Source of the DNA: a virus
Length of the DNA: 64,000 bases
Virus record (IMG/VR): IMGVR_UViG_3300045988_109366
Span: 85,042-149,041 of that record
Direction: 5' to 3' (one strand)
How positions within the stretch are numbered: the first letter of the stretch is position 1; the number at the start of each line of letters is the position of its first letter. Below the pieces are notes generated by a model. It was not told the DNA's origin. It did not search any database and saw nothing but the letters and a program-made list of their open reading frames with translations. Shown one piece after another: positions 589 through 51,384 of the stretch. The position numbers and the translations under genes are program-made.

Positions 589-656
589 CCAAAAAAAGAA
601 CGGCGGTAGACACCCGTGGCCTACCACGCCGTGACACCGCCGCCCGTTCCCATTGG
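589..656 (-). terminator. GC-rich hairpin, intrinsic-terminator-like (element A of the CCAA...TTGG-bounded family)
   Basis: Plus strand reads CCAAAAAAAGAACGGCGGT...ACCGCCGCCCGTTCCCATTGG. On the minus strand the stem GGCGGT/ACCGCC is followed by GTTCTTTTTTTGG, directly after the stop of ORF 659..988. Confidence 0.6.
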
Positions 657-1217: not shown

Positions 1218-1288
1218 CCAAAGGGGGAACAGGGACGGACGACCAGCGGGGCCTACCCCACGCCATCGCCGCCCCCCGTTTCCCTTGG
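1218..1288. repeat. GC-rich palindromic element B (CCAAAGGGGGAAC...GTTTCCCTTGG)
   Basis: About 71 nt GC island in AT-rich DNA. Its termini are imperfect inverted repeats, and the inner hairpin is GGGG-CCTA-CCCC. Confidence 0.6.
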
Positions 1289-1433
1289 TTCCCTCCGCAT
1301 CACCCCCCATACTAATAAACAATATCCACCACCAATAACACCATACCCACCATCACTCACAACTGCCTTGCCTTGACGAGAAACTCCTACCACTTGCAAA
1401 CTTTTACATCTGATCGGAAGATACCCCTTGCTC

Positions 1434-1623
1434 GAAAGGCGTTTCCCTTGCTTGGTGTTTTTCCTCGCTTGGTGTTTTTCCCCTTGTTTGGAAAGGTTTT
1501 CCCTTGCTTGGAGGTGTTTCCCTTGTTTGGTGGTGTTTTTCTTGTTTGGTGTTTTTCCTTGCTTGGAAAGGTTTTTCTTGTTTGGAGGTGTTTTTTTCCT
1601 TGTTTGGAAATGTCCCATCAAGC
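1434..1623. repeat. Ten tandem degenerate 16-21 bp direct repeats (iteron-like)
   Basis: Units parsed contiguously: 1434-1454, 1455-1472, 1473-1489, 1490-1510, 1511-1529, 1530-1550, 1551-1566, 1567-1586, 1587-1607, 1608-1623. Consensus is about CCCTTGYTTGG(nn)GTGTTTTT. Confidence 0.85.
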
Positions 1624-2543: not shown

Positions 2544-2631
2544 CCAATAAGAAACGGGAGACCGGGGACGACACGGCCGGCGTTATCGATATAACCAGCC
2601 GAACGCCCGCACGCCCCCCTATTTTCTTTGG
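2544..2631. repeat. GC-rich element C (CCAATAAGAAACGGG...CCCCTATTTTCTTTGG)
   Basis: About 88 nt GC island with purine-rich 5' and pyrimidine-rich 3' inverted termini, as in elements A, B and E. Confidence 0.5.
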
Positions 2632-3187: not shown

Positions 3188-3724
3188 TTATCTTACATTT
3201 TTATCGTGAGTAAGATAATAGGTGATACATTTGGCTATCAATGAAAACGAAAAATTCGTTATTTTAGTAGCCATTCGAGTAGATTTATATCTTTCATTAT
3301 TGTAAATAACGAAATAACCGCTTTTATCCTCAGAGTATTTAATAGGGGCACAATAGCCAAAAGCTTTATGTGTTGTGCCCAAAAGAATTTTCTGAGCTTG
3401 TTTTTCAGCTAACATTATTTTATTGTTGGCTGATTCATTTTCATCATTGTAAATCTTTTCTATTTCTATATATTGGCAAAATACGCCATCTATATTTGCA
3501 AGAATTTCTTTACAAATAGTAATAACCAATTCTTTATCTTTAGCCAAAGCGACTAAAGACGGGATAACATCTTTTGAAACTTCAATATTGTTTTCTTTGA
3601 TAATATCCATAACATCTTTTTTGCTATTAAACAATCTGCACCAAGATTTTATCGCACCCGTCAAAGTTTCAGACTCCGACTTTTTCACTGCATTTTGTAC
3701 TCGATTCAAATCTTTTGCTTTCAT
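3188..3724 (-). CDS. hypothetical protein (stand-alone transcription unit)
   Basis: 178-aa ORF with its own TATATTTG -7 box about 75 nt upstream. Flanked by long non-coding DNA. Confidence 0.6.
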   Translation of the reverse strand: MKAKDLNRVQNAVKKSESETLTGAIKSWCRLFNSKKDVMDIIKENNIEVSKDVIPSLVALAKDKELVITICKEILANIDGVFCQYIEIEKIYNDENESANNKIMLAEKQAQKILLGTTHKAFGYCAPIKYSEDKSGYFVIYNNERYKSTRMATKITNFSFSLIAKCITYYLTHDKNVR

Positions 3725-3800
3725 ATTAAATCGCCCTTGCCCTAGGGACTTGTATAGGCATCTAGCACGCCTCGTTTGTTAATATTGTTATCTCACATTG

Positions 3801-3808
3801 CAAATATA
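3801..3808 (-). promoter_or_regulatory. Bacteroidetes-type -7 box (TATATTTG on minus strand)
   Basis: Plus strand CAAATATA lies within ATTGCAAATATAAT. The same extended motif recurs at 13637, 34751 and, on the plus strand, 56744. Confidence 0.45.
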
Positions 3809-3971
3809 ATACATGTTTTATTTCCAAACAAATATTTTACAATAAAAATTCAACGATTATATATAATAAAACTAATCAAATGTAAATGTATATTAAAATA
3901 TTGATTTATATCATTGATAATCAACAATTTAAATCAAAAATAAGCATTCTTTTTTGGTTGGCTGGTCGTTT

Positions 3972-4058
3972 GCCGTTCCTTTTTCCCGCCCTTCGTGGAT
4001 TGGGGGGGCGGTCCAAAAAACGGCAGACCCCACGGCCCGATTTCGGGGAGGTGGTCCG
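3972..4058. repeat. GC-rich double hairpin (element D)
   Basis: GCCGTTCCTTTTTCCCGCCC pairs with GGGGGGGCGGTCCAAAAAACGGC. A second hairpin follows around CCCG-ATTT-CGGG. Confidence 0.55.
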
Positions 4059-4060
4059 TC

Positions 4061-4103
4061 CCTCATATCCCGCATATCCCTCATATCCCGCAATCCCTCA
4101 TAC
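4061..4103. repeat. Five tandem 8-9 bp units CCKCATATC
   Basis: The five units CCTCATATC, CCGCATATC, CCTCATATC, CCGCAATC and CCTCATAC are read directly from the sequence. Confidence 0.8.
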
Positions 4104-4238
4104 CTCTACATGTGATGCGCATCCCAACATATCCCTATCAAATCCATTCATCGTCCCCTCACGACCTTCTCATTAATTTTATTATATTTGCGATATAATA
4201 AAAACATAACATATTATGAATAAAGAAGTTGAATATAT

Positions 4239-4276
4239 GGGGGGGGGTATTTTAACCCTCAGATAAGGGGGGGGGG
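4239..4276 (+). promoter_or_regulatory. Two homopolymeric G tracts (G9 at 4239-4247, G10 at 4267-4276) immediately upstream of ATG 4278
   Basis: Counted directly. A similar G9 at 46494-46502 precedes gene 46521. Confidence 0.5.
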
Positions 4277-4277
4277 T

Positions 4278-4769
4278 ATGTTTAGGCGCAGGACTTCTTC
4301 CGGTAAGATCCACTACCGTGTTAATATAAACAAGAATATGTGTCTTGGCGTTGTAGATATATATATTGATAGGAAGCCATATCAACCTGGTTTTAACGGA
4401 TCTTATCTTGATATATATCGCGATAAGAAGATAAAAACTATAAGCATAAGTGGCCAGATATCATATCTAAATCCGAAAAATGAGTACAATGTTATTTTGG
4501 GCATAAGTGGAGGTATTATAGAGGGAACCCTTACGTATCAATATAATTCGGGTATGCATTGCGAGTTGGCTAATAAGGTGATATACGGGAATAGGATAAC
4601 TAATTTTGTTCCTGTAACGGAGATAGAAGATCCTGGGAAGATCATTAATTTCACTTACAGATCTGAATTACAGACTCAGGTTTTAGATGAAAGTCATGTA
4701 ACTTGGGATGGTGATTATATAAACGATAATTGTATAGTAACTGATCTTTGTTCGGGATGTGAATCTTAA
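4278..4769 (+). CDS. hypothetical protein (N-terminus MFRRR)
   Basis: 163-aa plus-strand ORF inside the minus-strand arm, followed by a GC hairpin and T-run. Confidence 0.55.
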   Translation: MFRRRTSSGKIHYRVNINKNMCLGVVDIYIDRKPYQPGFNGSYLDIYRDKKIKTISISGQISYLNPKNEYNVILGISGGIIEGTLTYQYNSGMHCELANKVIYGNRITNFVPVTEIEDPGKIINFTYRSELQTQVLDESHVTWDGDYINDNCIVTDLCSGCES

Positions 4770-4825: not shown

Positions 4826-4894
4826 CCAAGGGAAGGAGGGAGACCTCGTCCTACCGGGCCTCCCCCGTCCTACCGGGCCTCCCGTTCTTTTTGG
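4826..4894 (+). terminator. GC-rich element E / intrinsic-terminator-like
   Basis: CCAAGGGAAGGAGGGAGACC, then two copies of CGTCCTACCGGGCCTCCC, then GTTCTTTTTGG. It lies downstream of the stop at 4769. Confidence 0.55.
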
Positions 4895-4958
4895 CTTCTC
4901 CCTGTCTTATCTTTGACCGGATATCAAAAATTCATATCTTTGGAACAAAACTACAATC

Positions 4959-5129
4959 ATGTTTGATGAAGATATCGAGAAGATAAATGTAAGGGATAGT
5001 ACGGTTATCCGCGACAACGAGATACATAAGATGTATGACGAGATACTTAATGAGCTAGGTGATTTGGCCACTGTCGTATCTATGAACTACGTGTATGGCA
5101 GGATAAAGGACAGTACTGGATTAAAGTAG
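4959..5129 (+). CDS. possible small protein (56 aa)
   Basis: Hand-translated ATG..TAG ORF below the track size cutoff (MFDEDIEKINVRD...). Same strand as 4278..4769. Confidence 0.3.
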   Translation: MFDEDIEKINVRDSTVIRDNEIHKMYDEILNELGDLATVVSMNYVYGRIKDSTGLK

Positions 5130-8153: not shown

Positions 8154-8202
8154 TTTATTCAAAGATCTATAAATTGTATATAATTACCAAACAATATTTT
8201 AG

Positions 8203-8268
8203 CGAATCCGGCTGGAATCGAACCAGCATCTCCAATATTATGGTAATCATCCAATGATCCTCGGATCC
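8203..8268 (-). tRNA. tRNA-like sequence, possible pseudo-tRNA (anticodon arm not foldable)
   Basis: Acceptor is GGATCCG/CGGATTC, the D arm is GATC-ATTGGAT-GATT, and the T arm is GCTGG-TTCGATT-CCAGC. Only 16 nt remain where an anticodon arm plus variable loop is needed, for 66 nt total. Confidence 0.4.
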
Positions 8269-8349
8269 ATATGTCCCGATCCTCCCGGACAAGGACATCA
8301 AACAAAATCTAAACTCTAAATCTAATGACAAATTATATTAATCCAACTG

Positions 8350-12155: not shown

Positions 12156-13256
12156 TTAAACAATAATTGATGATGATAAGAAATACTCGTTCTTATTATC
12201 CTCCCCATAAATCTTGTTGAAATGAGATTTATGGTCATGCTCGATAACGATCCTATTCCATGGTATGCTTTTAACTATACCAAGATACCTACCACATAGC
12301 ACATCGCATATAATATCATTACCGTTATGCGATAAAGCCGTAAGCCTTTCCTTACAAGATCTTCCAGACATAGGGTTCTCTGACATAATACCGCATCCTT
12401 TTTCAGTGAATATCAACTTACAATGATCAAACTCATTTACCTTAATATTATTTTGGAGGGCCTGGACGAGTAGATCCTTATCAAAGACATAGGTACTTGT
12501 TTTGACAAAATGCTCGTCCACGAACCTCCAATTTGGATAATTACCCTCAAAATGGGTCTCATACATATCCATATCAGGCGTAGAGAAATAAGTCTTAGTA
12601 TCATCCACTTTTATAGACAACATATCCGATGACTTATTGATATGCTTATCAAGCAATATCGCGGATTCGTTCGATACCGGGATAAACATCTTCTCTACCT
12701 TATCCTGATTAGGGACAAAATACCTGTAAATAGTATTTCTATCCGTACTTACTATATTAATATTAATATCATCAATATCAATAACCACATTCTCGATGCA
12801 TGGATAAAAGTCATCTACCTCCGTATAATCGCTGGCTTTGTTAAGAACCGAAACATAATCGCTCATCTTAACCTTAATTCCTCCATCAAGTATCTTATGT
12901 ACCTGCGGGAATGTATTGATATCAAAAGCCGGACAACTATACTCACCAGAAGCGTAGTGGATCGTGATCTGATCTTTTCTATCCGAAAGCAGTATCGTAA
13001 TCTCACAATTCTTCTGTTTTTTCATGAACTTAATAAAAGAGCTTGCCTCTACCAAGAAAGAGAAGTTAGAGTCAGCCTCGACCTCCAATCGCTCTATAAC
13101 ACATACCTTGGCATTTACGGAAGTGATATAAGCCAGATTATTGACAACATCTATCTTAAGATCCTTATAAAGGGAGTTGGAACCGGCGTTCTTAACCACC
13201 GTCTCCAGTTTACCCAACTTCTCATTTAATGACTTCGACAAGCACTTCAATACCAT
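12156..13256 (-). CDS. DNA polymerase sliding-clamp (beta/DnaN-like) protein
   Basis: 366 aa. The N-terminal pattern, including ...SGEYSCPAFDINTFPQV, parallels the end of DnaN domain 1 (..FSLSTLPAADFPNL). Size fits a three-domain clamp. Confidence 0.55.
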   Translation of the reverse strand: MVLKCLSKSLNEKLGKLETVVKNAGSNSLYKDLKIDVVNNLAYITSVNAKVCVIERLEVEADSNFSFLVEASSFIKFMKKQKNCEITILLSDRKDQITIHYASGEYSCPAFDINTFPQVHKILDGGIKVKMSDYVSVLNKASDYTEVDDFYPCIENVVIDIDDININIVSTDRNTIYRYFVPNQDKVEKMFIPVSNESAILLDKHINKSSDMLSIKVDDTKTYFSTPDMDMYETHFEGNYPNWRFVDEHFVKTSTYVFDKDLLVQALQNNIKVNEFDHCKLIFTEKGCGIMSENPMSGRSCKERLTALSHNGNDIICDVLCGRYLGIVKSIPWNRIVIEHDHKSHFNKIYGEDNKNEYFLSSSIIV

Positions 13257-13636
13257 ATAACATATTTTATTTGTTTATCATCCATAATTCATGTACAAGC
13301 TTTATAAAAATCATACTCCGAAACCGGAAATGATTCCGGAGTATGAATCCCGATTATGGGATAAATCAGGATAAAAATCCTGTTAGTACCCATCGCCAAT
13401 GTTACCAAAGGTTTCATACAAGCAGCACTGTTTTGCCGAATACGCTACTCCTGTTTAACCACTTGCCTTAGAGCCTTGGGCTTGGATAAACACCCTAGGG
13501 TAACTATACATTCTAAGGTAACGTAGTGCTCTAAGCACTTAGGCTAATAACCTGACCGTTTCCGGTATATGTAAAATATTTTTCAACATCTTACATATTA
13601 TCCGAGGTTATAATAAACAACTTTTACATGACATTG

Positions 13637-17398: not shown

Positions 17399-18541
17399 TC
17401 ATCCGGCTTTACTCATCTCTGACCCTTTTACCCCTAAAAAGACGTCTTTTATAAAATCTTCGGAGATGATTATATGCATTATCTTTCCTCTGTATGATAG
17501 TCTTAGGTGTCCGATAGTTATATTTTTCCTGTCTTTGGTATTAACTATTCCGTTGTTTTTCTTTACCTCATCATATAAATCGGATATAGTCTTACAGCAC
17601 ATACTAAGAACTTCTTTTATCATCCGATATACCGTTCTTTGGGATATTAGCATCATACCTTCTTTTGATAACTTTATATTCAATCTATCCATAAGATATG
17701 ACACATTGAATTTGACAGTTCTTTTTTTAGTTACCTTATATATCTTATTTATATTTCTGTTTCTAGCTGAGAATATTATTTTTGATAACATCTTGACTCT
17801 ATTTAATTTACGACTTTTGTTAGCCATCCATCTTCTGGTATTCGAATCAAGATTTTTATCAAGGCAGGTATATACAGATTCTCCTTTCTTTACAAACATA
17901 TCCTTTATCCTTGGGGTCTTACTAGCCCTATGCTTGTATTTTATGATATCCGATAAAGCTATCATAATCTCTCCTTCAGCCCAAGCCTTTAAGCTTATAA
18001 GCTGGTAGTTCATATCCTCATGAGAATCCCTTAACACATGACGGTAGCAGAAATAAGCGCATCCATCTGATAGGATATCAATAAAATCATTGGTATTGAT
18101 CTCTATCTGATCTCTATTCCCGCCATGCATCCTATTTCTTAGAAACACATGTTTGAATACGTTTATGATAATAAGATATATCATTGCCATCTTACATTCA
18201 TCACTGATCTGAATACCTGATCCATGATACTCCTCATGTTTCAATGAATATTTTATAGCTGTCACTTTTTTGCCTTCCTTATTGGTAACAGGTTTAAAAT
18301 CGACTGGACATATAAGTGACCCGGCTGGAAGTTTTACGCATCCTAGCTCATCTTTTTTGGCCTGAATATTACGTGGAGTATATCTTTCGGTAATAATCTT
18401 ATCGAAATTTGATTTCATCATATGTAAAATTCCTATCTTTGTTCCCATATGTTTTTTTTTTTTATTTGCTGCGAATATACAAGTTTCATCAATACGAAAC
18501 AAATTATTCGGATGGATGGGTAGCCTGTGAAGGTCGCCCAT
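17399..18541 (-). CDS. hypothetical basic protein, first gene of the minus-strand arm
   Basis: 380-aa ORF. An alternative start at 18448 (MGTKIG...) lies just after an A12 run. Confidence 0.6.
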   Translation of the reverse strand: MGDLHRLPIHPNNLFRIDETCIFAANKKKKHMGTKIGILHMMKSNFDKIITERYTPRNIQAKKDELGCVKLPAGSLICPVDFKPVTNKEGKKVTAIKYSLKHEEYHGSGIQISDECKMAMIYLIIINVFKHVFLRNRMHGGNRDQIEINTNDFIDILSDGCAYFCYRHVLRDSHEDMNYQLISLKAWAEGEIMIALSDIIKYKHRASKTPRIKDMFVKKGESVYTCLDKNLDSNTRRWMANKSRKLNRVKMLSKIIFSARNRNINKIYKVTKKRTVKFNVSYLMDRLNIKLSKEGMMLISQRTVYRMIKEVLSMCCKTISDLYDEVKKNNGIVNTKDRKNITIGHLRLSYRGKIMHIIISEDFIKDVFLGVKGSEMSKAG

Positions 18542-18783
18542 TTGTTGTTTATACGAAATTATCGTAATAAATTAGAGGGGGTAAATCACTGTGTTTGTGG
18601 AAGATCATTTTTGACACGACACTTGTTACGCGCGCGTTAATAGGTATATTTATTAAATATAATTAACTCTATAAACATATACTACTTTCTAATATCCCTA
18701 TCCGTACACAGAACCTCTCCTGACGTCGAGTTCCTGTGTACTCCACTTAAAGTCTCTATTTAATAAAACATTGCTTTTTACCG

Positions 18784-19382
18784 CCAAGGTATGGTGCCGT
18801 CAGGCAGGATACCGCAGGCTAAACATGGTAGAAGCCGTATCCTATACCGGAAGCCGGTACCCCGGTAGGGGGATCGGGTGGAGCATAAGCCAAAGAAGAA
18901 AAAGCGAGGTCTTGTACGATCGCTCGCGCTCCGGCCGTCCGTATCTTCTACGGCAGGCTCCATGCCCCAGGGCCTCCCATTTCCCTTGGCTTTATATCCC
19001 ACAGCTTAGGAGGAAGGAATCCAAAGGGAAAAAGGTAAGGTCTTGTACGGTCGCTCACGCTCCGGCCGTCCGTATCTTCTACGGCAGGCTCCATGTCAAT
19101 AGCGAATCTCTGGCGGCATTGTCCGGTATGACGGCGGTAGCCTTACCCTGGGTGTCCCCGAGCGTCCCCCACCAACCTTTTCCCTTTGGATGCCTTGGGC
19201 TATGTCATGGGACGATAAGAAGCCAAAAAAAGGAGTGGTCGCATCCCGTGAGGCAGGATAAGACTGTCCCCCTCCGTCCACGTGCGTAGCGTACGTTAAC
19301 TTCACTGCCCTCGCTATTGCAGACAGCCGTAGACATACATGGCTTCGTTCGTCCTACCCCCCAACTAGCTTTTATCCTTTGG
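18784..19382. repeat. GC-rich array of four structured units (candidate ncRNA locus)
   Basis: Unit 1 starts at 18784. The others are 18890-18989, 19021-19189 (termini CCAAAGGGAAAAAGG / CCTTTTCCCTTTGG) and 19223-19382. A 58-nt direct repeat (18907-18964 and 19038-19095) shows 2 mismatches. No credible ORF. Confidence 0.6.
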
Positions 19383-19460
19383 ATTCTCGTAAATACATGC
19401 TAGTCAGCATATATTATGTCGATTATGGCAAAATTTCTTGACAACGATATTTTTTTTAAG

Positions 19461-19468
19461 TAGTTTTG
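19461..19468 (+). promoter_or_regulatory. -7 box TAGTTTTG upstream of the first plus-strand gene
   Basis: Matches TAnnTTTG, 18 nt before ATG 19486. Confidence 0.45.
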
Positions 19469-19485
19469 CTGAAAACTAATTCCAT

Positions 19486-19899
19486 ATGTCTGAACAGAGG
19501 AAAGCTTTCGTATTCGCATTACCTTATGATACTAGACTGGATATGATCCAGCAGTTCTTAAGGATATACAACGGCTATCTGGATTCCAAGGGTAGGAGCT
19601 TGATTACAGAAAGAACGATAAACTTACTTTCTTTCTACATCAACTACGGATACTCTGATGATACCAGGGCTAAGTACATGGATTGTCATGGACAGAAGGA
19701 GTCTTACATCGCTGTCCTTAACAACGAGCTTAAACGTGGTGGTTTTCTGGTGGACAAGAAGAACGGGAATTTCCGTACCCGTGAGCTGTCTATTGAGATG
19801 AGAAGCCTACGTAACTATTTTATTCTTGATGGGGAGGGTGATGATACCCGTGTAATGGGATTCGTATTCAAGAGAAACAAATTGGATATTGATGGGTAG
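19486..19899 (+). CDS. hypothetical protein
   Basis: 137-aa ORF, first of the plus-strand arm. Confidence 0.55.
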   Translation: MSEQRKAFVFALPYDTRLDMIQQFLRIYNGYLDSKGRSLITERTINLLSFYINYGYSDDTRAKYMDCHGQKESYIAVLNNELKRGGFLVDKKNGNFRTRELSIEMRSLRNYFILDGEGDDTRVMGFVFKRNKLDIDG

Positions 19900-24929: not shown

Positions 24930-26255
24930 CTGGCAGATAGTTTAATACTTTCATGCCTTACATTTTTTCATCTTTGAATATTTAAATTAAAATATAGTGC
25001 ATTATGTTAATATCTTATAAATATAGAATTTATCCGACAGAAGAACAGAAGGTTTTGTTTGCCAAGACTTTCGGATGCTGCCGTTTTGTCTATAACTGGG
25101 CACTCAACCTAAAGATTGAAGCATATAAGCAGGGAAAGAAGTCCGTATCATACAAGGAAGTGCAGGATCGGATGGTAAACGAGCTGAAAAAGGAGAATAA
25201 ATGGCTGGCCGAGGTTAATTCGCAATCTCTTCTTAATTCTATCCGCAATCTTGATGCCGCCTATAAAAACTTCTTTCGTGATACTCATGCAATGGGGTTC
25301 CCACGTTTCAAGAGTCGAAAGAATAAGCAAAGTTTTCAATGTCCGCAACATTGTAGCGTGGACTTTATCAATGAGACCATTTCCATACCCAAGGCAAAAG
25401 ATATTCCTGCCGTGCTGCATCGCAAGTTCAAAGGTACGGTGAAAACCGTCACCGTCAGCATGACACCTTCGGGCAAATACTTTGCTTCCGTATTGGTTGA
25501 TACGGCTATCCATGAACTTCCGGCAATGACCATACAAGGTGATACGACTTTGGGTATAGACTTGGGTATCAAATCTCTTGCCGTATGTTCTGATGGACGC
25601 ACGTTTGACAATCCCAAAAACTTGAAGAGAAATCTTGATCGCTTGAAGTTTTTGCAAAAGCGGTTGAGCCGCAAACAGAAAGGATCATCCAACCGTAACA
25701 GGGAGCGTATTAAGGTTGCCAAATTACAGGAACACATAGCCAACAGACGTAGGGACAATCTTCATAAAATCACTTATGCGCTGACACACGATAGCCAAGT
25801 GCGTACCATCTGCATGGAGGATTTGAACGTGAAAGGAATGCAGCGTAACCATCACCTTGCACAGGCGGTCGGTGATGCTTCTTTCGGTATGTTCCTGACG
25901 ATGCTTGAATACAAGTGCAGGTGGTATGGTGTGAACCTCATAAAGATAGACCGATTTGCTCCGAGTTCGAAGACCTGCGGCAAATGTGGATATATCTATA
26001 AAGGATTGAAATTGAACGAGCGAAAATGGACTTGCCCGGAATGTGGCACACATCACGACCGGGATTTCAATGCCGCTTGCAATATCAAGGAATTTGGCTT
26101 GAAAGCCCTACCCACGGAGCGTGGGAAAGTCAAGCCTGTGGACTGTCCTCTTGTGGATGATAGACCTCGTGTCCTAAAAAGCAATGGCAGGAAGAAGCAG
26201 GAAAAGGAAGTAGATGATATTTCTATACACTCATGTTTTAGGCGCGAGAAGCTCA
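24930..26255 (+). mobile_element. IS200/IS605-family TnpB-only element (boundaries approximate)
   Basis: The tnpB ORF plus flanks is visibly more GC-rich than the surrounding phage DNA. The right limit is inferred from the portal promoter at 26262. Confidence 0.45.
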
Positions 26256-26284
26256 CTAACTTATCTTTGCTAAAAAATAATTAG
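25004..26284 (+). CDS. tnpB: TnpB (OrfB) RNA-guided endonuclease family protein
   Basis: N-terminus YKYRIYPTEEQ. RuvC residues sit in GIDLGIK, CMEDLNVKGM and HDRDFNAACNI. The zinc ribbon is CGKCG...CPECG. Confidence 0.9.
   Translation: MLISYKYRIYPTEEQKVLFAKTFGCCRFVYNWALNLKIEAYKQGKKSVSYKEVQDRMVNELKKENKWLAEVNSQSLLNSIRNLDAAYKNFFRDTHAMGFPRFKSRKNKQSFQCPQHCSVDFINETISIPKAKDIPAVLHRKFKGTVKTVTVSMTPSGKYFASVLVDTAIHELPAMTIQGDTTLGIDLGIKSLAVCSDGRTFDNPKNLKRNLDRLKFLQKRLSRKQKGSSNRNRERIKVAKLQEHIANRRRDNLHKITYALTHDSQVRTICMEDLNVKGMQRNHHLAQAVGDASFGMFLTMLEYKCRWYGVNLIKIDRFAPSSKTCGKCGYIYKGLKLNERKWTCPECGTHHDRDFNAACNIKEFGLKALPTERGKVKPVDCPLVDDRPRVLKSNGRKKQEKEVDDISIHSCFRREKLTNLSLLKNN
26262..26269 (+). promoter_or_regulatory. 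-7 box TATCTTTG upstream of the portal gene
   Basis: 22 nt before ATG 26291. It lies inside the last codons of the tnpB ORF. Confidence 0.45.
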
Positions 26285-48743: not shown

Positions 48744-49396
48744 GAAGAAGAATGTTGAATAATGGAAGTGATGATCTTGTTGATCAACACACAAGATTCT
48801 TGATGAGATTTGACAATGATTTTAAGGTTGATGGATACCCCTCCCCTAATATCGAGGATGGTTTAGAGATCAAGGGAGGAGAGTTTGTTACCGATTCTAT
48901 AAGAACTGGATATAAATACACAAATACGTCTGATTCTTATGGGATGATTAATACATCTAGTACATTGTCACCTGATCTATTTGGTGATGGAGATCCATTT
49001 ACCATTGATTTTTGGTATAAACCATTAGTCGTTATTAACGCTTGTTCTGTTGGCCATGAATGGCATAATGGTATTTTTTATTTTGGTATAGCTGGTGATG
49101 CTGGTGATTTAGGTTTGTATTTTGCTACTCAAAGAGGAGCGTATGGAAGTAAAGCATCTGATGCTATTATTGGTAGGTGGTATCATATAGCTATGGTTAG
49201 GGTTGATTATACATTATATGGTTTTGTCGATGGCAAACGGTCTGTTTCATTCTCATGCCTTAATACTTCATTGAGATATAGTAATATAGATTTTAATAGA
49301 CAAAGGGATGGTAATAATAGGGCGTCTTTTGTAATAGATAATTTTAGGATAAGTGATGTAGCTAGATGGACGTCTGATTTTGATCCTCCTAAATAA
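48740..49396 (+). CDS. LamG/concanavalin-A-like lectin domain protein
   Basis: From ATG 48740 (MRRRML...). FTIDFWYKP...GRWYHIAMV...LYGFVDGK is the typical Laminin-G_3 pattern. Confidence 0.55.
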   Translation: MRRRMLNNGSDDLVDQHTRFLMRFDNDFKVDGYPSPNIEDGLEIKGGEFVTDSIRTGYKYTNTSDSYGMINTSSTLSPDLFGDGDPFTIDFWYKPLVVINACSVGHEWHNGIFYFGIAGDAGDLGLYFATQRGAYGSKASDAIIGRWYHIAMVRVDYTLYGFVDGKRSVSFSCLNTSLRYSNIDFNRQRDGNNRASFVIDNFRISDVARWTSDFDPPK

Positions 49397-49534: not shown

Positions 49535-49678
49535 GCATCGCGAATATATAATTTTGTCTTTGACCAGACAACTTCTTTGACTAGATTTTTACCCAACCAG
49601 AAACTGCCTTGAAGAAAATCCCTTATCTAGTAGACACTAGGTGAGGCAATATCTCTTTGAGGTCTATCTATGTTGACA

Positions 49679-49779
49679 CCAAAGGGAATGTGGCGGCTCC
49701 GTGAGGCAGGGCAGGAGGTATCCCCACACGGCCGGCCAGGAGCGGAGCGACTCGTAGCCCACCTCCCTTTTTCCCTTGG
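49679..49779. repeat. GC-rich structured element G (same family as units at 18784 and 19223)
   Basis: CCAAAGGGAATGTGGCGGCTCCGTGAGGCAGG...CCTCCCTTTTTCCCTTGG. It shares the CCGTGAGGCAGG core with 19243-19256. Confidence 0.6.
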
Positions 49780-50018
49780 CATATTACGCTTAAGCGTTGG
49801 AAAGAAGTAAACATATCAATGCATTAACGTCTGATGTAGGTAGTTGTTTGTCGATTAAAGATCCATAGACAACATAAGTAGATGTCAAAAATACACTAAA
49901 CTAAATCATTGATATACATTATTATTAAGATCTTATATTTTCAATCTACTACAGATTATTAAGTTAATGTATTTAAGTTATATACTTTAGATAATAACAA
50001 AGCGTTAGCTAACTCTTT

Positions 50019-50331: not shown

Positions 50332-51384
50332 ATGGCAAATTTAACATTAATATTCGACCAATTCGTATCTTTCTCTGAAAAAAAGAGGATGTCAGAAGAA
50401 AATAGAGCTTTGAGGAGGGATTCCGGCAAGGTCATCCTACCTTATTTGCTTAATGACAATGCTAATCCTTGTTGCGATAACCCTAGGATAAAGCGTCAAT
50501 CATCATCCAAGTCAGAGATACTTGAGAAGCCGATATCGGAGACGTTGATAGGCATTCTTATCATATGTCTTGACCCTATAAGGTTTAGGGCGCTGGGGGT
50601 CCAATACAACATCAAGTGGTTCTATTACTTTGTGAATGAAATAGTTAATTACTATATCAAGCATCATCGTTTTGGTGGTGATAATCTTGCTTATCAGATA
50701 AAGTTAGTTAGGTGGCTTTTGATCAGTTATGTTAACGTGGCTGTTGTACACGGTTATTATGCTATGGTGAGGAAGGCGAAGAAGGAGCATCCTGATCTTT
50801 TTGTGCATAGCAACAATGCGAGGTATTATTATTGGGACAATTGCCCTCCTAAGCATCGCAAGCTAGAGGATGAACGAAATATAAATAATCCTACCTATAA
50901 AGCCCATGAGTGCAATAGGAAGCGCGCCGAGGATATCAAACGTGTTGTTTATGACTCCATGGATTCGATCAGGAAACGTGACCTTAAGGATTTTGTGTCC
51001 TCCAAGAACAACGGGGTGAGCATTTCTTTTAAGGAAAAGGTTCAGAACAAGGTCAGGAAGAAGGGTTTTGGTAATGTCAGTATCAAGACCATAGAGAGGG
51101 CTATAAAGAGCTATTTAGATGAGCGTGGTGTCACTTTCTCTGAGTTCGTCGATGGGGTGAGGAAGTTGGATAGGAAGATAAAGGAAGTCAAGTCCGCTTT
51201 TGGCAAGGTTAAAAGGATTAAGATTTTTGGCGTCAAGGCTTATGATTATGTGTCTGGGGATGAGATAGCTGATGAGTTTGGCATGGCCGCGTTGTCTGAT
51301 GAGGTGTGGATTCCTGATAATAGCACACCGTTCCTTGACGATTATATTGAATCGCAGTATTTGTCTAACAATTTTAATTTCTAA
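50332..51384 (+). CDS. hypothetical protein
   Basis: 350-aa ORF with its own promoter. Confidence 0.6.
   Translation: MANLTLIFDQFVSFSEKKRMSEENRALRRDSGKVILPYLLNDNANPCCDNPRIKRQSSSKSEILEKPISETLIGILIICLDPIRFRALGVQYNIKWFYYFVNEIVNYYIKHHRFGGDNLAYQIKLVRWLLISYVNVAVVHGYYAMVRKAKKEHPDLFVHSNNARYYYWDNCPPKHRKLEDERNINNPTYKAHECNRKRAEDIKRVVYDSMDSIRKRDLKDFVSSKNNGVSISFKEKVQNKVRKKGFGNVSIKTIERAIKSYLDERGVTFSEFVDGVRKLDRKIKEVKSAFGKVKRIKIFGVKAYDYVSGDEIADEFGMAALSDEVWIPDNSTPFLDDYIESQYLSNNFNF

What the first reader, a model, noticed from the sequence alone, without database searches (positions are those of the whole stretch)
18784..19382. About 600-nt GC-rich array of four hairpin-bounded units in the divergent control region: candidate structured ncRNA locus
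The whole space between the two divergently transcribed arms (minus-arm ATG at 18541, plus-arm ATG at 19486) is a strongly GC-rich island in an AT-rich genome. The only ORFs there are overlapping low-quality ones on both strands. It resolves into units that start with CCAA(A/G)G and end with YTTGG. Unit 1 starts at 18784. Unit 2 is 18890-18989. Unit 3 is 19021-19189, whose termini CCAAAGGGAAAAAGG and CCTTTTCCCTTTGG are reverse complements apart from a single-A bulge. Unit 4 is 19223-19382. Units 2 and 3 share a 58-nt direct repeat (18907-18964 and 19038-19095, 56 of 58 identical) containing the hairpin CCGTA-TCTTC-TACGG. Units 1 and 4 share a 5' module with the distant element at 49679: CCAARG..TGG...CCGT(G/C)AGGCAGG. 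The small stem around GTGAGGCA shows one compensatory change, ATCC/GGAT at 19246 versus CTCC/GGAG at 49698. In several units the terminal helices pair better as minus-strand RNA, where G:U replaces A-C mismatches. I cannot match this to any RNA family from memory. It could be a large structured ncRNA, a set of sRNAs, an origin or packaging structure, or nested MITE-like insertions.
Basis: seen in the sequence. Interest (0 to 1): 0.75.

Follow-up and report, generated by a model that had tools for sequence, protein, structure and literature searches.

The report
Phage family of GC-rich RNA hairpins
The GC-rich block between the two gene arms of this gut crAss-like phage is a tandem cluster of a phage-wide family of non-coding hairpin elements that most likely act in RNA; the family matches nothing described, but its kind (intergenic hairpin repeats) is familiar.

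Summary
Window 18784-19382 is a non-coding island of about 56% GC in a 41% GC genome. It resolves into units bounded by CCAAAGG...CCTTTGG inverted repeats.

It is not an isolated locus. The same kind of unit occurs at five more intergenic sites in the window: 589-656, 1218-1288, 2544-2631, 4826-4894 and 49679-49779.

The window comes from an epsilon-type crAss-like phage of about 150 kb. About 115 close relatives carry the array, always with unit 1 and a unit-4 type. Units 2 and 3 come and go by recombination. The nearest complete genome, csAssE-Sib, has no array at the syntenic junction.

Evidence for structure:
- Consensus units fold better than shuffles, best on the minus strand (z -3 to -6.6 for U2, U3, U4B, U6, U8).
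- U6 keeps its hairpin through compensatory changes and G.U pairs.
- A covariance model built on U6 also finds U8 and U7.

Each locus points the same way as the next gene downstream.

Limits: nothing matches Rfam, and the array units themselves show no covariation beyond controls.

Best reading: strand-specific, cis-acting RNA hairpins that act as terminators or attenuators, or as processing or stability signals. The array is a tandem cluster at the head of the replication arm. The mechanism is inferred, not shown.

The parts
18784..18889 (-). Unit 1. It has the conserved hairpin GGUAU-CC-UGCC-UGAC-GGCA-CC-AUACC and only one arm (CCUUGG). It is always the unit nearest the minus-arm gene.
   Evidence: Present in every complete array. 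Diversity pi 0.056. Fold z -0.7 to -2 on either strand.
18890..18989 (-). Unit 2, 100 nt. It is bounded by CCAAAG.../...CCCTTGG arms. On the minus strand it ends in the hairpin GCGAG...CUCGC followed by UUUUUCUUCUUUGG.
   Evidence: Consensus fold z -3.0 on minus and -2.15 on plus. The GCGAG/CUCGC pair occurs as CG 18, CA 28, TA 5 in plus-strand letters, that is G.U on the minus strand. Absent in some relatives.
19021..19189 (-). Unit 3, 169 nt, with a 14-bp terminal helix. In this genome its 5' third (plus-strand sense) has been overwritten by unit 2 sequence, which destroys the 11-bp internal helix seen in most relatives.
   Evidence: Consensus fold z -4.6 on minus and -3.2 on plus. The four helices P1-P4 are 95.3% paired, against 40-53% with slid partners, but show no covariation beyond shuffles.
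19223..19382 (-). Unit 4, type A, 160 nt. It carries the invariant GAGGCAGGAUA module (CCUGCCUCACGG on the minus strand) and a minus-strand 3' end UCCUUUUUUUGG.
   Evidence: A second type (4B) replaces it or sits beside it in relatives. The minus strand folds better in 7 of 8 variants.
18990..19020 (.). Spacer between units 2 and 3.
   Evidence: pi 0.054.
19190..19222 (.). Spacer between units 3 and 4, the most conserved piece of the array. Some relatives carry a 19-nt insertion here.
   Evidence: pi 0.021. Insertion seen.
18704..18741 (.). Conserved 12-14-bp hairpin in the AT-rich stretch between unit 1 and the minus-arm start codon.
   Evidence: Inverted repeat I5. Nearly invariant among relatives.
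49679..49779 (-). Unit 5, a single copy 145 nt upstream of tRNA-Cys on the same strand. It is the most conserved element of its locus.
   Evidence: pi 0.025, against 0.067 for tRNA-Cys, 0.13 for the spacer and 0.29-0.44 for the flanking ORFs. Minus-strand fold better in 8 of 8 variants. Covariance-model hit on the minus strand with exact boundaries, but weak (11.5 bits). A TATTTTTG -7 box lies at 49893 on the minus strand. A hairpin plus U-tract follows the tRNA.
2544..2631 (-). Unit 6, an 88-nt hairpin ending 23 nt upstream of the ATG of the minus-strand ORF 2315-2521.
   Evidence: Consensus fold z -6.5 on minus against -2.3 on plus. Covariance model scores 110.7 bits on minus against 25.3 on plus. 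Covariation: 90.8% of cells paired, 11 cells changed on both sides, reached by 0 of 500 shuffles.
1218..1288 (-). Unit 8, a 71-nt hairpin ending 33 nt upstream of the ATG of the minus-strand ORF 943-1185.
   Evidence: Alignment-fold z -4.9 on minus and -5.6 on plus. Minus-strand z lower in all 15 variants. Found by the U6 model at E 0.0013.
589..656 (-). Unit 9, a hairpin plus U-run lying between a stop codon at 659 and the ATG at 563.
   Evidence: The model hit is weak (12.2 bits, E 0.73). pi 0.31.
4826..4894 (+). Unit 7, 69 nt, with an internal tandem duplication (period 19 nt). It lies 57 nt after the stop of the plus ORF 4278-4769 and ahead of a TATCTTTG -7 box (4935-4942) and the ATG at 4959.
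   Evidence: Model hit 18.8 bits on plus against 11.3 on minus. Folding z-scores are not significant.
1425..1593 (.). Nine tandem copies of a 19-nt repeat (CCCTTGCTTGGAGGTGTTT) whose core resembles the unit arms. Several contigs of relatives end inside it.
   Evidence: Its relation to the family is not established.

Best explanation
The array is a tandem cluster of four members of a phage-specific family of GC-rich extended hairpins.

**Anatomy.** Each member has a purine-rich arm (CCAAAGGGAAAAAGG...) that pairs with a pyrimidine-rich arm (...CCUUUUUCCCUUUGG) around a variable GC-rich core.

**How it works (inferred).** The elements act in RNA, on the strand that is transcribed locally. That is the minus strand for the array, U5, U6, U8 and U9, and the plus strand for U7. 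In that sense most of them read as a stable stem followed by a U-rich run. I therefore think they are cis-acting punctuation marks of transcripts. They could be intrinsic terminator or attenuator-like signals, or hairpins that direct processing or protect RNA ends. I do not think they are free-standing regulatory RNAs.

**Role of the array (inferred).** The array lies at the head of the minus (replication) arm. It would be a multiple barrier or leader of this kind, built up and trimmed by recombination between the shared arms.

**Shown.** The elements are non-coding, they form a family, they are structured with a strand preference, one member shows covariation, and their orientation matches the neighbouring genes.

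**Inferred.** Transcription itself, and which of termination, processing or stabilisation applies.
For: **Family.**
- Seven inverted-repeat-bounded pairs were found in 64 kb, all intergenic.
- The covariance model built on U6 recovers U8 (E 0.0013), U7 (E 0.008), U9 and U5 weakly, and many further copies in relatives.

**Structure.**
- Consensus fold z on the minus strand is -3.0 (U2), -4.6 (U3), -4.4 (U4B), -6.5 (U6) and -6.6 (U8).
- The U8 alignment fold has z about -5.

**Strand.**
- U6 has z -6.5 on minus against -2.3 on plus, and scores 110.7 against 25.3 bits.
- The minus strand folds better in 8/8 U5, 7/8 U4A, 11/12 U6 and 15/15 U8 variants.
- Several U6 pairs are G.U in most sequences.
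- One-sided changes in the U3 terminal helix are nearly all G.U on the minus strand.

**Covariation.** In U6, 11 cells are changed on both sides, reached by 0 of 500 shuffles. The covariation score is 0.238, against 0.04-0.10 with slid partners.

**Context.**
- U9, U8 and U6 end 25, 33 and 23 nt before the ATGs of minus-strand ORFs. Those ORFs show codon-phase diversity typical of real genes.
- U7 sits after a plus ORF and before a -7 box.
- U5 lies upstream of tRNA-Cys on its strand.
- All six loci are co-oriented with the next gene.

**Selection.**
- U5 has pi 0.025, lower than the tRNA beside it.
- Array pi is 0.061, below the neighbours' third-position values of 0.07-0.25.
- U6 and U9 evolve fast (pi 0.22 and 0.31) while U6 keeps its hairpin.

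**Not coding.**
Against: - There are no expression data. Transcription and strand are inferred.
- The array units show no compensatory excess.
- The window's own copies have ordinary folding z-scores, -1.4 to +0.9.
- The window's U3 has lost its 11-bp helix.
- U1, U4A, U5 and U7 consensus sequences do not fold significantly better than shuffles.
- The wobble asymmetry of the terminal helices is not significant when counted by site (19 versus 15).
- For strong terminators, 23-33 nt is too short to hold a promoter for the next gene. Those copies would therefore have to be leaky, bypassed by a phage polymerase or an antiterminator, or have another role.
- The simple terminator scan found none in 18300-19700. 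The stems have loops larger than its limit.
- No recognisable promoter upstream of the array was found on the minus strand.
Confidence: 0.5

Rival explanations
1. The units are genes for small stable RNAs, in classes of about 100 nt and about 165 nt. In the array they are made as one precursor and cut out at the terminal helices. They then act in trans, for example as decoys, sponges or guides during infection. The invariant CCUGCCUCACGG/GAGGCAGG module would be the functional site.
For: - GC content is like that of the phage's tRNAs.
- Long closing helices resemble processing stems.
- U5 is more conserved than the adjacent tRNA over its whole length.
- The module is invariant across 57 U4 sequences of both types.
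- The cassette-like array keeps a fixed order and orientation.
- There is a precedent of abundant, unexplained non-coding RNAs from long intergenic regions of the crAss-like phage phi14:2 (bioRxiv 10.1101/2020.03.07.982082).
Against: - U6, U8 and U9 lie 23-33 nt from start codons inside an operon of small genes, and they evolve fast in sequence. That fits cis elements better.
- The array units show no covariation.
- No promoter or terminator was defined for the array.
- No Rfam match.
- Units 2 and 3 are dispensable in many relatives.
Confidence: 0.2
2. The elements work as DNA. The arms would be binding sites for a phage protein, or the hairpins would form on single-stranded DNA. The array would then be part of a replication origin, a priming signal, or a partition or packaging site at the point where the two arms diverge.
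For: - The array sits at the divergent junction, where cumulative GC skew turns.
- The arm motif occurs about eight times in 600 nt, in both orientations.
- An arm-like motif is repeated nine times in tandem with a 19-nt period at 1425-1593, next to a very AT-rich stretch.
- An HU-like DNA-binding ORF lies nearby, though the match is weak.
Against: - Orientation follows the local transcription direction. U7 is on plus inside the left arm and U5 is on minus inside the plus arm, which a replication-strand rule does not predict.
- The arms are imperfect as duplex palindromes. Their mismatches are mostly of the type that is G.U on one strand only.
- The strong plus/minus asymmetry of folding in U6 is not expected for cruciforms or for duplex binding sites.
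- The syntenic junction of csAssE-Sib has no such array.
- The csAssE-Sib record begins, at the terminus PhageTerm assigned, about 17 kb from its syntenic junction (PMC11054128; record coordinates).
Confidence: 0.15
3. The units are MITE-like or REP-like selfish repeats that have colonised intergenic DNA of this phage lineage and have no function for the phage.
For: - Terminal inverted repeats of about 15-20 nt and sizes of 69-170 nt.
- Several dispersed copies, all intergenic.
- GC content foreign to the genome.
- Copy number and presence vary among relatives.
- Absent from the nearest complete genome.
- TnpB and an IscB-type HEARO RNA in the window show that mobile DNA does enter this genome.
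Against: - No target-site duplications at any of seven copies (read directly).
- Interiors are unrelated between copies.
- Presence and absence are explained by recombination between shared arms, not by precise excision.
- No inverted copy was seen in about 115 arrays.
- U5 is under strong purifying selection.
- Orientation is tied to neighbouring genes.
- The pattern scan found the family only in this phage group within IMG/VR.
Confidence: 0.1

Closest known systems
RNase III processing hairpins between the early genes of phage T7 (R0.3, R0.5, R1, R1.1, R1.3). This comparison is from established knowledge and was not tested here.
   Same: A phage-specific family of related irregular hairpins. 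They sit in the short gaps between co-directional small early genes, on the transcribed strand, with a conserved lower stem and a variable upper part.
   Different: - The T7 sites are about 50-60 nt, not GC-rich islands of 70-170 nt.
- They do not occur as tandem arrays at a divergent junction.
- Cleavage has not been shown here.
Intrinsic (factor-independent) terminators, including bidirectional ones with an A-run, a GC-rich stem and a U-run.
   Same: In the favoured strand most units end with a GC-rich stem directly followed by a U-rich run. Examples are CUCGC-UUUUUCUUCUUUGG in U2, CCGCC-GUUCUUUUUUUGG in U9 and CCUCCC-GUUCUUUUUGG in U7. The upstream arm is A/G-rich.
   Different: - The stems are far longer and branched (up to 170 nt), with large loops.
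- The consensus terminator scan finds none.
- Three copies lie only 23-33 nt before the next start codon.
- Ordinary small terminators also exist in this phage, for example after tRNA-Cys.
Repetitive extragenic palindromes and related intergenic repeats of bacteria (REP/BIME, ERIC, Correia, BOX).
   Same: Dispersed, intergenic, imperfect palindromes that are transcribed with neighbouring genes. They are modular, come in size classes, and vary in copy number between strains.
   Different: - Those are bacterial chromosomal families with tens to hundreds of near-identical copies.
- Some are mobilised by dedicated transposases.
- Here there are few copies with unrelated interiors, in a phage, and no mobilising enzyme has been identified.
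Abundant long non-coding RNAs from the long intergenic regions of the crAss-like phage phi14:2 (bioRxiv 10.1101/2020.03.07.982082).
   Same: Both are unexplained non-coding stretches in a crAss-like phage. In phi14:2 they are expressed early and persistently.
   Different: - No sequence relation was found.
- The phi14:2 region is AT-rich.
- Part of it scores as tmRNA-like: 46 bits against a gathering score of 47.

Membership tests
Any Rfam family (release 15) | Score at or near the family's gathering threshold against its covariance model | tested here: not met
   - No hit in 18500-19600 up to E 10 except two chance-level ones.
- None in 49540-49900.
- The whole window at gathering level gives only HEARO and three tRNAs.
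tRNA / tmRNA | Cloverleaf or tRNA-like domain detected by ARAGORN or Rfam | tested here: not met
   ARAGORN finds only tRNA-Arg, tRNA-Met and tRNA-Cys, none inside the units.
Protein-coding gene | Excess of variation at third codon positions, and an open frame kept in relatives | tested here: not met
   - Diversity by phase is flat at 0.063/0.060/0.061.
- Whole units are gained and lost in steps that are not multiples of three.
MITE (DDE-transposon derived) | Terminal inverted repeats | tested here: met
   Arms of about 15-20 nt at both ends of seven units.
MITE (DDE-transposon derived) | Target-site duplication flanking each copy | tested here: not met
   The flanks of U2-U8 share no direct repeat (sequences).
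MITE (DDE-transposon derived) | Near-identical copies at unrelated sites, and empty sites in relatives with precise boundaries | tested here: not met
   - Interiors are unrelated.
- Variation in the array is explained by recombination between arms.
Invertible DNA segments (invertons, shufflons) | The segment between inverted repeats is found in both orientations in a population | tested here: not met
   All units have the same relative orientation in about 115 arrays.
Intrinsic terminator | GC-rich stem followed within 0-2 nt by a U-rich run on the transcribed strand | tested here: inconclusive
   - Seen by eye in U2, U3, U4A, U7 and U9 in the favoured strand.
- The consensus scan with loops of 3-8 found none.
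Intrinsic terminator | RNA 3' ends at the U-run, and termination in vitro | not testable with these tools
   No transcript-end data are available.
RNase III processing site | Double-stranded stem of about 20 bp or more on the transcript | tested here: met
   U6 and U8 fold into hairpins of about 30-40 bp on the minus strand. U3 and U4B have closing helices of 14-20 bp.
RNase III processing site | Staggered cleavage in the stem | not testable with these tools
   No RNA-end or enzymatic data.
Structured RNA family (general criterion) | Base pairs kept through compensatory changes beyond what controls give | tested here: inconclusive
   - Met for U6.
- Not met for the array units U3 and U4 or for the pooled helices.
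Replication-origin iterons | Short direct repeats at helical-turn spacing next to an AT-rich unwinding element, bound by an initiator | tested here: not met
   - In the array the arm motifs are 70-170 nt apart and alternate in orientation.
- A repeat of 19-nt period exists elsewhere, at 1425-1593. Its role was not tested.

The most novel reading that the evidence does not exclude
The array encodes a modular set of small stable RNAs of a class not yet described. They would be excised from one minus-strand precursor at their shared purine/pyrimidine helices and would carry an invariant CCUGCCUCACGG loop module. A crAss-like phage would use them in trans during infection, for example as decoys or sponges against a host factor or defence. 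Cassettes would be swapped between strains by recombination.
Probability: 0.15. Interest if true: 0.75.

Novelty: new variant of a known kind. Interest (0 to 1): 0.45.

Why it matters
CrAss-like phages are the most abundant viruses of the human gut, and how they control transcription is largely unknown. No promoter motif is known for their early genes, which the virion polymerase transcribes (bioRxiv 10.1101/2020.03.07.982082).

A lineage-specific, strand-specific family of hairpins sits in front of the small genes in the first 5 kb of the window (their timing was not examined), in front of a tRNA, and fourfold in front of the replication arm. It gives concrete sites to test for termination, antitermination or RNA processing in these phages.

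The family also explains GC-rich islands that gene callers fill with spurious ORFs. If the units turn out to be free small RNAs, they would be a new class of phage RNA.

Tried and rejected
**Searches and tests that gave nothing.**
- Rfam at gathering and at permissive thresholds on the array and on U5: nothing.
- Protein coding: rejected by flat codon-phase diversity.
- Enumerating all covarying column pairs and all candidate helices: swamped by linkage between sites, so uninformative.
- U4 type A against type B. They align without gaps at 64% identity. The alignment-fold energy is below shuffles (z -3.3 and -2.7), but the number of compensatory pairs equals the null (5 against 4.3). The apparent compensatory changes are therefore not evidence.
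- Invertible segments: rejected.
- Promoter and terminator consensus scans: uninformative.
- The motifs TATGTTTA and TGTATTTA as a possible phage promoter: too few and too inconsistent.
- Relation to the TnpB element's ends: none.
- Function of the flanking proteins (380 aa and 137 aa) from Pfam, PHROGs and PDB sequences: nothing.
- Literature on epsilon crAss-like phages: no mention of intergenic repeats.

**Searches that only partly helped.**
- A pattern scan of IMG/VR for the 3' arm found the family only in this phage group, so it gave no more distant homologues.
- RNAalifold on U3 (minus strand) chose a structure without the 11-bp helix. I tested my own four-helix model instead.

**Not run.** Scans of the metagenome and genome collections. 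Every pattern general enough to find distant copies would have given hundreds of chance matches.
Full report
**What the window is**

The 64-kb window has 41% GC. Its portal, terminase and replication genes place it among the crAss-like phages.
- The nearest complete genome is phage csAssE-Sib (OR575929, 151 kb, portal 48% identical). More distant relatives are the 145-kb Cellulophaga phages phi17:2 and phi4:1.
- csAssE-Sib belongs to the epsilon crAss-like group (PMC11054128).
- IMG/VR holds at least 265 close relatives, with contigs of about 150 kb.
- A -7 box of the Bacteroidota type (TAGTTTTG, 19461-19468) precedes the first plus-arm gene.

**Checking the observation**

The description is accurate.
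- GC reaches 0.54-0.575 over 18800-19400.
- The region lies between the minus-arm ORF 17399-18541 and the plus-arm ORF that starts at 19486.
- The inverted-repeat termini, the 58-nt U2/U3 repeat (56 of 58) and the module shared by U1, U4 and the element at 49679 are all present.
- The overlapping ORFs are not genes. Across 33 colinear relatives, diversity by codon phase is flat at 0.063/0.060/0.061. Each flanking ORF shows a clear third-position excess.

Two details need correction.
- The 58-nt repeat is a gene conversion peculiar to this genome. Most U3 copies carry another sequence there. The conversion removes one strand of an 11-bp helix that U3 has elsewhere.
- The proposed compensatory change between 19246 and 49698 compares stems around loops of 9 and 13 nt. 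It is therefore not a like-for-like pair.

**The array in relatives**

I used the 137-aa plus-arm protein (98-99% identical in all hits) to fetch 80 loci. The intergenic region has 73 distinct sequences, 451 to 923 nt long.

It is modular:

| Architecture | Loci |
|---|---|
| U1-U2-U3-U4A | 55 |
| U1-U2-U4B | 32 |
| U1-U3-U4A | 10 |

- There are also rarer forms with duplications, with U1-U4A only, or with U4B and U4A together.
- U1 and one U4 type are always present.
- Order and orientation never change.
- The junctions lie in the shared arms or shared internal stretches, so the variation comes from homologous recombination.
- Diversity in the array (0.061) is below the neighbours' third-position values of 0.07-0.25. 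The array is therefore under some constraint.
- The syntenic junction of csAssE-Sib is 350 nt, AT-rich and has no array. The array is a lineage-specific addition, not a core feature of the control region.

- Rfam gives nothing.
- Alignment-fold z-scores against column shuffles are weak: U1 near 0; U2 -2.5 and -1.2; U3 +1.5 and -0.6; U4A -0.5 and -1.9.
- The window's own units fold no better than dinucleotide shuffles, with z from -1.4 to +0.9.
- In the helices of the consensus sequences, compensatory cells are rare: 11, against 234 mismatched and 368 wobble cells.
- U4A and U4B align without gaps at 64% identity, but the number of compensatory pairs equals the null.
- A four-helix model of U3 is 95% paired yet shows no covariation beyond shuffles.

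On the array alone, the case for a structured RNA would be weak.

**The family is dispersed**

I scanned the window for CCAA plus a purine run, facing a pyrimidine run plus TTGG 50-220 nt away. This returns seven pairs and no others:
- the three bounded array units;
- U5 (49679-49779);
- 1218-1288 (U8);
- 2544-2631 (U6);
- 4826-4894 (U7).

An eighth copy, 589-656 (U9), came from the covariance model. All are intergenic and have 54-72% GC.

Consensus sequences taken from relatives fold significantly better than dinucleotide shuffles, and better on the minus strand:

| Unit | z, minus strand | z, plus strand |
|---|---|---|
| U2 | -3.0 | -2.15 |
| U3 | -4.6 | -3.2 |
| U4B | -4.4 | -4.0 |
| U6 | -6.5 | -2.3 |
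| U8 | -6.6 | -5.2 |

- U4A, U5, U1 and U7 are not significant.
- Variant by variant, the minus strand is the better folder in 8/8 U5, 7/8 U4A, 11/12 U6 and 15/15 U8 sequences.
- The U6 model scores 110.7 bits on the minus strand and 25.3 on the plus strand. It also finds U8 (E 0.0013) and U7 on the plus strand (E 0.008), and U9 and U5 weakly with correct boundaries. It finds many further copies of about 70 nt in relatives.

On the model-based alignment of 14 distinct U6 sequences:
- 90.8% of cells pair, against 43-57% when partners are slid.
- Six pairs and 11 cells change on both sides. No shuffle of 500 reaches the cell count.
- Five pairs are G.U or U.G in half or more of the sequences (at least ten of 14 in four of them), which the other strand cannot form.
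- This alignment is fitted to the model, so it leans towards the structure. The slid controls still argue that the hairpin is real.

**Context and orientation**

The small minus-strand ORFs at 96-563, 943-1185, 2315-2521 and 3188-3724 show the codon-phase pattern of real genes.
- U9, U8 and U6 end 25, 33 and 23 nt upstream of three of their start codons. U9 begins right after a stop codon.
- U7 scores best on the plus strand. It lies 57 nt after a plus ORF and before a TATCTTTG box and the ATG at 4959.
- U5 lies on the strand of tRNA-Cys, 145 nt upstream of it. A TATTTTTG box sits about 100 nt further up, and a hairpin plus U-run follows the tRNA.
- The array lies 243 nt upstream of the first minus-arm gene.

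So in all six loci the favoured strand is that of the next gene downstream. A rule based on replication direction would not predict U7 or U5.

Sequence conservation differs widely: U5 0.025, U7 0.09, U8 0.10, U6 0.22, U9 0.31. U6 keeps its fold while its sequence drifts. U5 is constrained in sequence as well.

**Mechanism**

In the favoured strand most units end as a GC-rich stem followed at once by a U-rich run:

| Unit | Stem end and U-rich run |
|---|---|
| U2 | CUCGC-UUUUUCUUCUUUGG |
| U3 | CCUUAC-UUUUUCCCUUUGG |
| U4A | CCACUCC-UUUUUU... |
| U7 | CCUCCC-GUUCUUUUUGG |
| U9 | CCGCC-GUUCUUUUUUUGG |

- The U-rich run can also pair with the A/G-rich 5' arm. This is the outline of an intrinsic, possibly bidirectional, terminator, but on a much larger and often branched stem.
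- Three copies lie too close to the next start codon for a promoter to fit between. If they terminate, they must do so partially, or be read through by a modified or phage-encoded polymerase.
- The same anatomy also fits RNase III-type processing sites or end-protecting hairpins, as between the early genes of T7. That comparison rests on established knowledge and was not tested.
- I therefore commit to cis-acting, strand-specific RNA hairpins that punctuate transcripts. The array would be a fourfold barrier or leader at the head of the replication arm. I leave termination versus processing open.
- Transcription itself is inferred.

**Rivals**

- **Free small RNAs.** This remains possible, mainly because of U5's full-length conservation and the invariant GAGGCAGG module.
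- **DNA-level roles.** These are weakened by the strand asymmetry and the orientation rule. The nine 19-nt arm-like tandem repeats at 1425-1593, next to an AT-rich stretch, remain unexplained.
- **Selfish MITE-like repeats.** These are weakened by the lack of target duplications, the unrelated interiors, selection on U5 and the fixed orientation.

**Novelty**

- No Rfam family matches.
- The paper on epsilon crAss-like phages does not mention these repeats.
- A pattern scan found the family only in this phage group.
- The kind of element, intergenic hairpin repeats on transcripts, is well known.
- New here are the sequence family, the enlargement of units to 100-170 nt and the tandem array at the divergent junction. 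I rate this as a new variant of a known kind.

Noticed in passing
window 13382-13611 (-): A full-length match to Rfam HEARO, the RNA partner of IscB (94.3 bits, E 5.5e-18). No IscB gene lies next to it. It sits between a 194-aa ORF with no family match (its positional counterpart in csAssE-Sib is annotated RuvC resolvase) and the sliding-clamp gene 12156-13256 (Pfam DNA_pol3_beta, E 4.6e-10).
   Followed up: partly
window 25004-26284 (+): A TnpB gene (Pfam OrfB_IS605, HTH_OrfB_IS605 and Cas12f1-like TNB domains) is wedged between the large terminase and portal genes. Only 94 nt and 6 nt of spacer remain on its two sides. In csAssE-Sib those two genes are adjacent.
   Followed up: partly
L174 (Cellulophaga phage phi14:2, NC_021806) 4031-4502 (+): The long intergenic region of phi14:2 is reported to give an abundant, unexplained non-coding RNA. 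It scores as tmRNA in Rfam at 46 bits (gathering score 47, E 2.6e-16). Part of that RNA may therefore be a phage tmRNA.
   Followed up: no
window 1425-1593: Nine tandem copies of a 19-nt unit (CCCTTGCTTGGAGGTGTTT), overlapped only by ORFs with TTG starts on both strands. Diversity among relatives is very high (pi 0.31). Four IMG/VR contigs of relatives end inside it, which suggests either an assembly break or a genome end.
   Followed up: partly
window 3770-4277: An extremely AT-rich stretch of about 170 nt is followed by GC-rich partial unit arms (TTTTTTGG at 3954-3961, CCAAAAAACGGCAGACC at 4013), then a 9/18-nt tandem repeat (TCCCTCATA, 4059-4102), then two poly-G runs that flank 4240-4277.
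   Followed up: no
window 8154-8348 (-): Between tRNA-Met and tRNA-Arg lies a stretch that ends in a T-arm-like sequence (GGTTCGATTCCAGCC). ARAGORN and Rfam do not call it. It may be a decayed or interrupted tRNA gene.
   Followed up: no
window 48900-49396 and 50332-50700: The ORFs on either side of the U5/tRNA-Cys island are extremely diverse among relatives (pi 0.29-0.44). The island between them is conserved (pi 0.02-0.13).
   Followed up: no
window 3188-3724 (-): This 178-aa ORF was found in only 25 IMG/VR loci, against at least 265 for the 137-aa plus-arm gene. It appears to be an accessory gene of the terminal region.
   Followed up: no
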